From assembly GCF_003334335.1 (NCBI RefSeq), contig NZ_QOWQ01000001.1: a stretch of 64,000 bases of DNA; one strand, 5' to 3'. This document shows, piece after piece, positions 33,001-36,000 of the stretch (position 1 is its first letter; the number at the start of each line of letters is the position of its first letter). Made by a program: the position numbers. The stretch is from Escherichia coli. GTDB taxonomy: Bacteria > Pseudomonadota > Gammaproteobacteria > Enterobacterales > Enterobacteriaceae.

Positions 33001-36000
33001 GGGAGAATCCCCAGGTTATCTGGAAAAAGATAAACATTACAGAGAAGCCGATGCGGCTTTACTTAATGTTATTTATCCTACAAATCTTTCAAAGATAAAC
33101 ACCAGAAGAAAAGAGCAAGTTCTAAAAATAGTTAAAAAACTAGCAGGTCCGTATGGTATAAAAAGATACGAGAAGGATAATTATCAGTCGGCAAATTTTT
33201 GGTTCAATGATATTAAAACCGATACCGATCAAAATTCGCATGCAAAAAGAGAAAAGAGCTTCATTCCATCAACAGAAGCAGAATGGTTTTTTGACTCATG
33301 GTATGCAAAATCAGCAGCAATTGTTTATAAAGAATCAAGAAAAGAAGAGTATTTGAATGACTCAGTACAATTTATGAATAGATCATTGGCCCAAATAACA
33401 GGCGAGAATATGATTGGTGCAAATGGCAGGAGCGTACCAGAAATGGCACTTCCCGAAAGCTATAACTATATCCACAAGTCGGGAACTTTGCATGAAGCGC
33501 CAAGCCCTATCATTCCGCTAAATTGGTCGAAAGCTTCAATGACTCTCATGTTGAAAGAGATGTCCAACCTTATCAATGATGAGGGAATTAAATAGTTTTC
33601 ATAATGAGTTACAGCACAACGTTGGGTATTGACTGAGCAAGATGAACGACAAGGACAACGACATCAGCCTTATGAGGAGCAAGAAAATGAAAGCAAATTC
33701 GAAAACGATCAGAAGGATGAAAGTTAATGTTCGGTCTGAGGAAAGTAAATCGAAACACTCATACGTTTGAAACCACTTTTCAAAATTGGAAAGAAAATGG
33801 CGAAGATGTTGCATTATTAATGCCCGAATTTAGTGCTAAATGGCTACCGATAGCAGAAGAGAGTGGCAGCTGGTCTGGATGGGTATTGCTTGGAGAAATA
33901 TTTCCCTTAATTTCATCTGAGCTCGCTGGGATGGCTTTAATGCCAGAAACGGAAAGGTTAATAGGGGAATGCCTCAGTTTATCCAGTTCCCCGTTAAATC
34001 TAAAGCATCCTGAACTAAAATATAATCGTTTGCGCGTAGGTAAAGTATTTGATGGAGTATTGAGCCCTGCTCAACCACTAATAAGAATATGGACAGGGGA
34101 ATTGAATCTTTGGTTAGATAAAGTCACAGTCTGCCAATACGGAAACGCTCCAGCGTTAGACAAAAAATCGTTATATTGCTCCATTCATTTTGTAATTGGA
34201 TTTAGTAAAACATGTTACAGAAGTCTTGTTGATATTGAAGTTGGTGATGTTTTATTAATCTCAAATAATTTGGCTTATGCGGTTATTTATAATACAAAAA
34301 TTTGTGATTTAATTTATCCAGAGGAGTTAAAAATGGCTGATCATTTTGAGTACGAGGAAGATTTTGAAACAGATGATTTTGATATCAAAAAAAACGAGAG
34401 TGAGATTTATGATGAAAATGACGATCAGATGATTAATAGTTTTGAAGACTTGCCTGTAAAAATTGAGTTTGTTCTTGGTAAGAAAATAATGAATCTATAT
34501 GAAATAGACGAACTCTGTGCAAAAAGAATAATATCTCTGCTTTCTGAATCTGAGAAAAATATAGAAATACGTGTAAATGGCGCGCTAACTGGCTATGGCG
34601 AACTTGTTGAAGTGGATGATAAATTGGGCGTAGAGATTCATTCTTGGTTATCAGGGCATAATAATGTCAAATAGCATTTCGCTGATAGCTATACTATCAT
34701 TATTTACACTATTGCCGTTTATAATAGCATCCGGGACATATTTTATTAAATTCTCGATTGTTTTTGTTATTGTCCGAAACGCGCTGGGGCTTCAGCAAGT
34801 GCCATCAAATATGACACTTAATGGGGTTGCTTTGCTATTGTCAATGTTTGTAATGATGCCGGTTGGGAAGGAAATATATTATAACAGTCAGAATGAGAAT
34901 CTTTCATTCAATAATGTAGCGTCGGTTGTTAATTTTGTTGAGACAGGCATGAGTGGTTATAAATCATATTTGATAAAATATTCCGAACCGGAGTTGGTTA
35001 ACTTTTTTGAAAAGATTCAGAAGGTGAATAGCTCTGAAGACAATGAAGAGATATTCGATGATGATAATATTTCAATTTTCTCGTTACTCCCGGCATATGC
35101 GTTGAGTGAGATAAAAAGTGCATTTATTATAGGTTTTTATATCTATTTACCCTTTGTTGTAGTGGATCTGGTTATATCCAGCGTTCTGTTAACGTTAGGT
35201 ATGATGATGATGAGTCCGGTAACCATATCTACACCGATAAAATTAATTTTGTTTGTCGCGATGGACGGTTGGACAATGTTATCAAAAGGACTCATTTTAC
35301 AATATTTTGACCTATCCATTAATCCCTGAGGAAAAAATATGGACGATATTGTTTTTGCAGGGAATAGGGCGCTGTATCTGATTTTAGTTATGTCTGCAGG
35401 ACCTATCGCAGTTGCGACATTTGTTGGTTTATTAGTAGGGCTTTTTCAAACGGTAACACAGTTGCAAGAACAGACGTTGCCATTTGGCGTGAAATTATTA
35501 TGCGTAAGTATTTGCTTTTTTTTAATGAGCGGATGGTATGGCGAAAAATTATATTCTTTTGGTATTGAAATGCTGAATTTAGCATTCGCGAGAGGATAGC
35601 ATGGGTGAGGCGATACTCTATCAGTTGCATAGTCTGCTGGCTGCTACAGCGCTCTGTTTTTGCCGATTGGCACCCACTTTCTATTTGTTACCATTTTTCG
35701 CCAGTGGGAATATACCAACAGTAGTCCGTCATCCAATAATAATAGTGGTATCATGTGCATTAGTTCAGCATTACCACTATGAATTATTGAACTTAAATGA
35801 AATCGATATTGCTTTGTTCGCTGCCAGAGAAATTATCATAGGGCTGTTTATTGCATGCTTATTAGCATCCCCGTTTTGGATTTTCCTTGCTATAGGTAGC
35901 TTTATCGATAACCAACGCGGTGCAACATTAAGTAGTACTTTGGATCCGGCTACAGGTGTCGATACCTCGGAATTAGCAAGATTATTTAACCTTTTCTCTG

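What the first reader, a model, noticed from the sequence alone, without database searches (positions are those of the whole stretch)
33596..33726. Probable deletion scar where the secretin / export gate / ATPase block should lie
In SPI-1-type clusters the sctQ gene is preceded by invJ/invI/invC(ATPase)/invA(export gate)/invE/invG(secretin)/invF. Here sctQ starts only about 130 bp after the end of the glucoamylase-like pseudogene, so about 8-9 kb of core machinery is absent. The junction sequence contains short ORF fragments (for example MNDKDNDISLMRSKKMKANSKTIRR...) that may be remnants of the lost genes.
Basis: inference. Interest (0 to 1): 0.5.

Follow-up and report, generated by a model that had tools for sequence, protein, structure and literature searches.

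The report
Known 8.7-kb ETT2 deletion junction
This 130-base stretch is the healed joint of a well-documented 8.7-kb deletion that removed the secretin, export gate, ATPase and regulator genes from E. coli's cryptic second type III secretion island (ETT2); about a third of sequenced E. coli genomes carry it, so it is ordinary.

Summary
The window is an E. coli chromosome segment carrying the ETT2 island next to tRNA-Gly. The GH15/ygeQ pseudogene stops at 33595. SctQ (epaO) starts at 33727.

Compared with four references that keep the eiv block, the window matches the left flank through 33608 and the right flank from 33609. There is no filler DNA, and 8,737 bp are missing (8,736 against one reference). 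The lost DNA holds a GhoT/OrtT-like gene, eivF, eivG (secretin), eivE, eivA (SctV), eivC (ATPase), eivI and the 5' part of eivJ.

Positions 33609-33727 are the last 119 nt of eivJ. Their stop overlaps the epaO ATG.

The breakpoints lie in a short imperfect direct repeat (ATAATGA-G / ACAATGATG), at the foot of a hairpin.

The same junction occurs in 1,939 of 5,426 complete E. coli genomes. RefSeq already annotates the EivJ fragment, and the literature describes an 8.74-kb ETT2 deletion isoform lacking eivJICAEGF.

Verdict: already known, low interest.

The parts
31756..31829 (+). tRNA-Gly that flanks the ETT2 island on this side
   Evidence: Rfam tRNA hit at 31756-31826, 71.6 bits. PGAP annotates tRNA-Gly in the near-identical strains ML35 and P13-6.
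31985..33595 (+). Glycoside hydrolase family 15 gene (ygeQ/pkgA). It is a pseudogene here, split by a stop at 32777-32779 into ORFs 31985-32779 and 32846-33595.
   Evidence: PGAP on identical sequence gives YgeQ plus a hypothetical protein. The same 1,611-bp gene is intact in L003, L010, L011 and L013.
33596..33608 (+). Retained 13 nt downstream of the GH15 stop (TTTTCATAATGAG). This is the left side of the deletion joint and contains the left copy of the short imperfect repeat ATAATGAG.
   Evidence: Matches intact references up to and including G33608. The references then continue into the hairpin GCGGTCC...GGACCGC, which is absent here.
33609..33727 (+). The 3'-terminal 119 nt of eivJ (SpaN/InvJ homologue, needle-length determinant). 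This promoterless, start-less stump is the right side of the joint. Its stop TAA (33725-33727) overlaps the epaO ATG.
   Evidence: Translation of 33608-33727 equals the last 39 residues of EivJ, with 2 substitutions against L001. PGAP annotates a partial pseudogene at 33608-33727. The nucleotide match to L001 runs from position 14011 onward.
33727..34674 (+). epaO (sctQ), 315 aa, apparently full length
   Evidence: NCBIfam NF006018 YscQ/HrcQ, 489.5 bits, profile positions 3-303 of 303, residues 2-315. ORF listed.
34664..37497 (+). epaP (34664-35329), epaQ (35339-35599), epaR (35601-36368) and epaS (36377-37497, frameshifted near 37105). These are the export-apparatus genes left behind without the upstream eiv genes.
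   Evidence: PGAP annotation of near-identical P13-6 and ML35. ORF list.

Best explanation
Window 33596-33726 is the novel joint of the known ~8.74-kb deletion isoform of the E. coli ETT2 island.

Shown: an ancestral ETT2 had the SPI-1-like order GH15 - ghoT/ortT-like - eivF-eivG-eivE-eivA-eivC-eivI-eivJ - epaOPQRS. It lost 8,737 bp, from 13 nt after the GH15 stop to 119 nt before the end of eivJ.

Inferred: the ends were joined by RecA-independent illegitimate recombination (replication slippage or microhomology-mediated joining). The join used a short imperfect direct repeat (left ATAATGA-G, right ACAATGATG) with only the terminal G strictly shared. The left break sits at the foot of a stable hairpin.

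Shown: the loss removes the secretin, gatekeeper, SctV export gate, ATPase, stalk protein, needle-length ruler and the InvF-like regulator EivF.

Inferred: the island therefore cannot build an injectisome in this strain. The surviving epaOPQRS genes have lost whatever eivF-proximal promoter served them, by analogy with the SPI-1 invF operon. They now sit 131 nt behind a GH15 pseudogene whose downstream hairpin was deleted, so any expression would have to come from read-through or weak internal promoters.
For: Exact breakpoints with no filler DNA: the left flank is colinear to L001 5273 and the right flank from L001 14011. The flank distance is 8,737 bp in L001, L005 and L007 and 8,736 bp in L006.

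Gene content of the missing block comes from PGAP annotation of strains 134, D8, E21 and JBEHAAB-19-0176.

The eivJ C-terminal 39 codons are retained in frame and are annotated as a partial SpaN/EivJ pseudogene in RefSeq.

An identical junction is present in O104:H4, ATCC 8739, E2865 and H9Ecoli, and in 1,939 of 5,426 complete genomes. A further 972 genomes keep at least 80% of the block.

[quoted passage not shown] The hairpin at the left break folds at -19.7 kcal/mol, z = -3.5. No IS element or long repeat flanks the block.
Against: The microhomology is weak. Only 1 nt is strictly shared. The imperfect repeat reaches an anchored score of 4-5, which random position pairs in the same DNA reach in about 1.6-5% of trials, so the slippage mechanism is plausible but not demonstrated.

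The event may not have been a single 8.7-kb step. A 4.99-kb eivF'-eivA' deletion isoform (L003, L004) has a right flank as close to the window as other 8.7-kb-deletion strains do (10 mismatches in 1,050 nt). A 3.74-kb second deletion in such an ancestor would give the same joint.

The expression consequences for epaO-S are untested. Consensus scans find only chance-level promoter-like sites.
Confidence: 0.95

Rival explanations
1. Two-step origin. The lineage first carried the 4.99-kb eivF'-eivA' deletion seen in strains such as WCHEC020032 and 0H24. A second deletion of ~3.74 kb then removed the rest, producing the same joint.
For: In L003 and L004 the two flanks are 3,742-3,743 bp apart and carry the same repeat sequences. 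The L004 right flank differs from the window at only 10 of 1,050 nt, against 29-73 for block-containing references. The eivJ stump shares variants with L004.
Against: The similarity may only reflect shared phylogroup background. Nothing in the window can record a prior internal deletion. Full-length block references have the same breakpoint sequences, so one step suffices.
Confidence: 0.15
2. Recurrent hotspot. The same joint arose several times independently because the repeat and hairpin geometry favours it, rather than once with later inheritance and recombination.
For: PMC5422975 says the block is 'often deleted' between small direct repeats. Left-flank divergence among deletion strains (up to 28 of 1,400 nt) is as large as between the window and intact strains.
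Against: The joint is identical to the base, including the missing T of the right repeat, in all sampled strains. Nearly all 1,939 junction-spanning matches are at least 99% identical over 141 nt. The repeat is too short and imperfect to be a strong hotspot. Flank diversity is also explained by an old event before the divergence of the lineages, plus recombination.
Confidence: 0.2
3. Not a deletion. The short arrangement is ancestral, and the eiv block was inserted in O157/042-type strains.
For: None beyond the presence/absence polymorphism itself.
Against: The window keeps an in-frame C-terminal stump of eivJ that begins mid-gene. The block-containing order matches SPI-1 in gene order (PMC6030553). 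Most E. albertii, a separate species, carry a nearly complete ETT2 (PMC11068852). No mobile-element ends flank the block.
Confidence: 0.01
4. IS-mediated or site-specific (integrase) deletion.
For: Other ETT2 deletions are IS-associated: IS5/ISKpn26 in ML35 and IS1 in 0H24 and H9Ecoli.
Against: At this joint the left and right flanks abut with zero extra nucleotides. There is no IS remnant, no target-site duplication and no long repeat.
Confidence: 0.02

Closest known systems
ETT2 '8.74-kb deletion' isoform lacking eivJICAEGF (Ren et al. 2004 as cited by PMC5422975; APEC isoforms summarised in PMC11068852)
   Same: Same locus (tRNA-Gly / GH15 side of ETT2), same missing genes and same size (8,737 bp measured here against 8.74 kb published). 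The joint is identical in 1,939 complete genomes.
   Different: Nothing material. This work adds base-level breakpoints, the strict 1-nt / imperfect 8-9-nt repeat, the adjoining hairpin and a frequency in a 5,426-genome set.
Salmonella SPI-1 inv-spa operon (invFGEABCIJ-spaOPQRS)
   Same: Block-containing ETT2 has the same gene order, eivF-G-E-A-C-I-J then epaO-P-Q-R-S. The eivJ stop overlaps the epaO start.
   Different: The window lacks everything from invF to most of invJ. ETT2 has no invB equivalent in the annotated references.
Other ETT2 attrition events: the 4.99-kb eivF'-eivA' deletion, the K-12 remnant and IS-associated truncations
   Same: All inactivate the same cryptic T3SS, and several hit the same eiv block.
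   Different: The breakpoints differ. K-12 matches the window only up to 33121, inside ygeQ. L003 and L004 keep eivC-eivJ. ML35 has an extra IS5-linked orgA'-yqeG' deletion that the window lacks.

Membership tests
ETT2 8.7-kb (eivJICAEGF) deletion isoform | Located in the ETT2 island between the GH15/ygeQ gene next to tRNA-Gly and epaO | tested here: met
   tRNA-Gly lies at 31756, GH15 at 31985-33595 and epaO at 33727.
ETT2 8.7-kb (eivJICAEGF) deletion isoform | Absence of eivF, eivG, eivE, eivA, eivC, eivI and most of eivJ, with epaO-S retained | tested here: met
   Colinear alignment to L001, L005, L006 and L007 shows 8,736-8,737 bp missing. The retained genes are listed.
ETT2 8.7-kb (eivJICAEGF) deletion isoform | Size of about 8.74 kb and a joint shared with other strains | tested here: met
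   8,737 bp measured. Identical joint in L010-L013 and in 1,939 of 5,426 genomes. The published 8.74-kb figure is.
Microhomology / short-direct-repeat (illegitimate) deletion | Short direct repeat at both endpoints with one copy retained, and no filler DNA | tested here: inconclusive
   The left repeat is ATAATGA-G and the right is ACAATGATG, with one hybrid copy retained. Only 1 nt is strictly shared. The chance probability of this much similarity is about 0.016-0.05.
IS-mediated deletion | IS element or its end at the joint | tested here: not met
   The joint consists only of the two native flanks.
Functional SPI-1-type injectisome gene set | Presence of SctC, SctV, SctN, SctW, SctO and SctP together with SctQRSTU, SctD/J, SctF and SctI | tested here: not met
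   The SctC, V, N, W and O genes are deleted and SctP is reduced to 39 codons. epaS and orgA are also frameshifted according to PGAP.

The most novel reading that the evidence does not exclude
The joint might mark a favoured, possibly recurrent and selected event. A hairpin-adjacent micro-repeat could repeatedly excise the eiv block. The loss could be advantageous, either by shedding costly apparatus genes or by removing EivF, which is reported to repress LEE. The fusion could also put epaOPQRS under read-through transcription from the GH15 gene, keeping a partial export apparatus expressed for some non-injectisome role.
Probability: 0.08. Interest if true: 0.35.

Novelty: already known. Interest (0 to 1): 0.08.

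Why it matters
It matters little beyond bookkeeping. It shows that this strain's ETT2 cannot form a secretion apparatus. It places the strain in the common 8.7-kb-deletion isoform (about 36% of complete E. coli genomes here). It also gives base-level breakpoints that could serve as a PCR or in-silico marker for ETT2 isoform typing. The only mildly open questions are whether the deletion arose once or repeatedly, and whether the orphaned epaO-S genes are still expressed.

Tried and rejected
1. I looked for long direct repeats flanking the block in an intact reference. Only chance-level 20-36-nt imperfect matches turned up, none at the breakpoints.

2. I tested whether the hairpin at the left break is a canonical intrinsic terminator. 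It is not called by the consensus scan because it has no T-run, although it folds strongly.

3. A promoter scan around the joint gave chance-level hits only: 6 found against 5.5 expected.

4. Rfam found no RNA family in the joint, only the tRNA-Gly upstream.

5. Identity of the stump was established by direct alignment and translation instead.

6. I tried twice to read Ren et al. 2004, but it is not held in the library. Its content is cited only through PMC5422975 and PMC3977695.

7. I initially assumed the window was strain ML35. That was rejected because ML35 has an extra IS5-linked deletion beyond 41436. The window instead matches O141:H4 P13-6, with 4 mismatches per ~26-31 kb.

Full report
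**What the window is.** Window 30500-38500 is 100% identical to E. coli ML35. It matches 5,418 of 5,426 complete E. coli genomes at least in part. Window 31000-55000 is essentially identical to O141:H4 strain P13-6, and the comparisons of 1-31000 and 30000-56000 each show 4 mismatches. PGAP annotation of these near-identical records gives the following order:
- xdhA, actS, tRNA-Gly
- a GH15 gene split in two (ygeQ plus a hypothetical protein)
- a partial 'SpaN/EivJ family needle length determinant, missing N-terminus'
- YscQ/HrcQ, SctR, SctS, SctT, SctU
- etrA, eprHIJK, orgA and onward to yqeF

This is the ETT2 island.

**Checking the observation.** The GH15 frame stops at 33593-33595. A 315-aa ORF starts at ATG 33727. 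That ORF matches the NCBIfam SctQ equivalog NF006018 over profile positions 3-303 of 303, at 489.5 bits.

**What is missing.** I fetched four ETT2 loci that keep the eiv block: the O157-like strain 134 (L001), D8 (L005), E21 (L006) and JBEHAAB-19-0176 (L007). In each, GH15 is followed by these genes before epaO:
- a 180-bp GhoT/OrtT-family gene
- eivF (AraC/InvF-like regulator)
- sctC (eivG, the secretin)
- the InvE-type gatekeeper (eivE)
- the SctV export gate (eivA)
- sctN (eivC, the ATPase)
- eivI
- eivJ

BLAST and base-by-base comparison show that the window is colinear with the left flank through G33608 (L001 5273). It is colinear with the right flank from T33609 (L001 14011). No nucleotides are inserted at the joint. 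The interval absent from the window is 8,737 bp in L001, L005 and L007, and 8,736 bp in L006.

**The remnant.** Translating from 33608 gives VTAQRWVLTEQDERQGQRHQPYEEQENESKFENDQKDES*. This is the C-terminal 39 residues of EivJ, with two substitutions relative to O157. Its TAA stop (33725-33727) overlaps the epaO ATG in a TAATG arrangement.

Its first 15 residues are an out-of-frame reading of the eivJ tail. The rest, MKANSKTIRRMKVNVRSEESKSKHS, is the N-terminus that O157 annotation assigns to EpaO. That frame closes early in the window because the window, like L004 and L005, has an extra A at 33761 relative to O157.

**Polarity.** Three facts establish deletion here rather than insertion elsewhere:
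- The window keeps an in-frame gene stump cut mid-gene.
- The block-containing arrangement follows the SPI-1 gene order (PMC6030553).
- Most E. albertii carry a nearly complete ETT2 (PMC11068852).

**Mechanism of joining.** The sequences at the two breakpoints and in the window are:
- Left references: ...TAAATAGTTTTCATAATGAG|GCGGTCCTGGATTAAAAGGACCGCTC...
- Right references: ...CCCAACACAATGATG|TTACAGCACAACG...
- Window: ...TTTTCATAATGAG|TTACAGC...

The endpoints lie in a short imperfect direct repeat (ATAATGA-G and ACAATGATG). AATGA is shared exactly, but only the terminal G is strict microhomology at the crossover.

In a simulation of 200,000 random position pairs from L005, an end-anchored similarity as high as the score 4 obtained with L005's own right repeat occurs in 4.8% of trials. 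The repeat form in the other references would score 5, which I scored by hand and which about 1.6% of trials reach. This is compatible with slipped-strand or microhomology-mediated joining, but the support is weak.

The left break sits at the base of a stable stem-loop, GAGGCGGTCC...GGACCGCUC (-19.7 kcal/mol, z = -3.5). That stem-loop is lost with the deletion.

No IS end, target duplication or long repeat is present at the joint. [quoted passage not shown] 2004 (PMC5422975). I could not read Ren et al. directly.

**Population frequency.** I searched with a 141-nt query centred on the joint. It is matched end to end in 1,939 of 5,426 complete genomes. Among those sampled are O104:H4, ATCC 8739, EHEC E2865 and H9Ecoli, and all four have the identical joint.

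The deleted block is present at 80% coverage or more in 972 genomes, and in part in 1,335. The partial cases include a 4.99-kb eivF'-eivA' deletion isoform (L003 and L004).

A 2024 review lists 4.99-, 5.68- and 8.74-kb deletions at this end of ETT2 in APEC (PMC11068852). The measured 8,737 bp matches the 8.74-kb isoform.

**Open nuances.**
- The window's right flank is as close to the 4.99-kb isoform strain WCHEC020032 (10 mismatches in 1,050 nt) as to other 8.7-kb-deletion strains (4-17 mismatches). It is further from block-containing references (29-73 mismatches). A two-step origin (4.99 kb, then 3.74 kb) therefore cannot be excluded.
- Left-flank divergence among strains with the joint reaches 2%. 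That fits either an old single event with later divergence and recombination, or recurrence. The base-identical joint favours a single origin.

**Consequences.** With SctC, SctW, SctV, SctN, SctO and SctP gone, and epaS and orgA additionally frameshifted according to PGAP, this ETT2 cannot assemble an injectisome.

It is an inference, by analogy with the SPI-1 invF operon, that epaOPQRS lost its native upstream promoter. Those genes now lie directly behind the GH15 pseudogene with the intervening hairpin removed. Consensus promoter scans give only chance-level hits. Expression was not tested.

**Verdict.** The feature is already described in the literature and already annotated in RefSeq. Interest is low. 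My confidence of 0.95 applies to the deletion reading itself. For the slippage/microhomology joining mechanism I would put it nearer 0.6.

Noticed in passing
window 33687-34674: PGAP labels epaO/sctQ 'frameshifted' in strains identical to the window. However, the 315-aa ORF from ATG 33727 covers the SctQ profile NF006018 almost end to end (positions 3-303 of 303), and its ATG overlaps the eivJ stop (TAATG). O157 lacks one A (window 33761) and is annotated from an upstream ATG (window-equivalent 33687). The 'frameshift' may therefore be an artefact of an O157-based reference model, not a real defect here.
   Followed up: partly
window 31985-33595: The GH15 (ygeQ/pkgA) gene has the same 1,611-bp length as intact alleles but is split by a stop at 32777-32779. 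The first half encodes the same YgeQ protein (WP_000676919.1) that is annotated in H9Ecoli, ML35 and P13-6.
   Followed up: partly
window 31840-31842 (vs L001 3432-3512): There is an indel of about 78-81 bp immediately downstream of tRNA-Gly. The O157-like reference and many other strains carry extra sequence here that the window lacks.
   Followed up: no
window 36377-37497, 41144-41724, 42595-43227, 43246-43748, 46644-47133: The same island carries further small-scale attrition according to PGAP on near-identical strain P13-6: epaS frameshift (ORFs break near 37105), orgA frameshift, ygeK (LuxR-type) internal stop, lytic transglycosylase (pbl/ygeJ) frameshift and ygeF frameshift.
   Followed up: no
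L008 11436-12627 (ML35), corresponding to window ~41436 onward: Strain ML35 shares the 8.7-kb joint. It has an additional IS5-like (ISKpn26) insertion with loss of DNA from orgA' to yqeG'. The window does not have this and stays colinear with the intact reference to at least 46000.
   Followed up: partly
L005 1500-1530 (intact references; absent from window): A strong stem-loop, GAGGCGGTCC-N8-GGACCGCTC (-19.7 kcal/mol, z = -3.5), lies just after the GH15 stop in intact strains and begins exactly at the left deletion breakpoint. It has no T-run, so it is not called as an intrinsic terminator.
   Followed up: partly
L001 5327-5506 (deleted from window): The lost block also contains a 59-aa GhoT/OrtT-family membrane toxin-like gene (ECs3735, ydcX-like) between GH15 and eivF. 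It is not part of the T3SS and no adjacent antitoxin is annotated.
   Followed up: no
L003 9766-10427; L004 2079-2740: A different deletion of about 4.99 kb fuses the 5' end of eivF to the 3' end of eivA in strains 0H24 and WCHEC020032. It is nested inside the region missing from the window, and their eivC carries an internal stop.
   Followed up: partly
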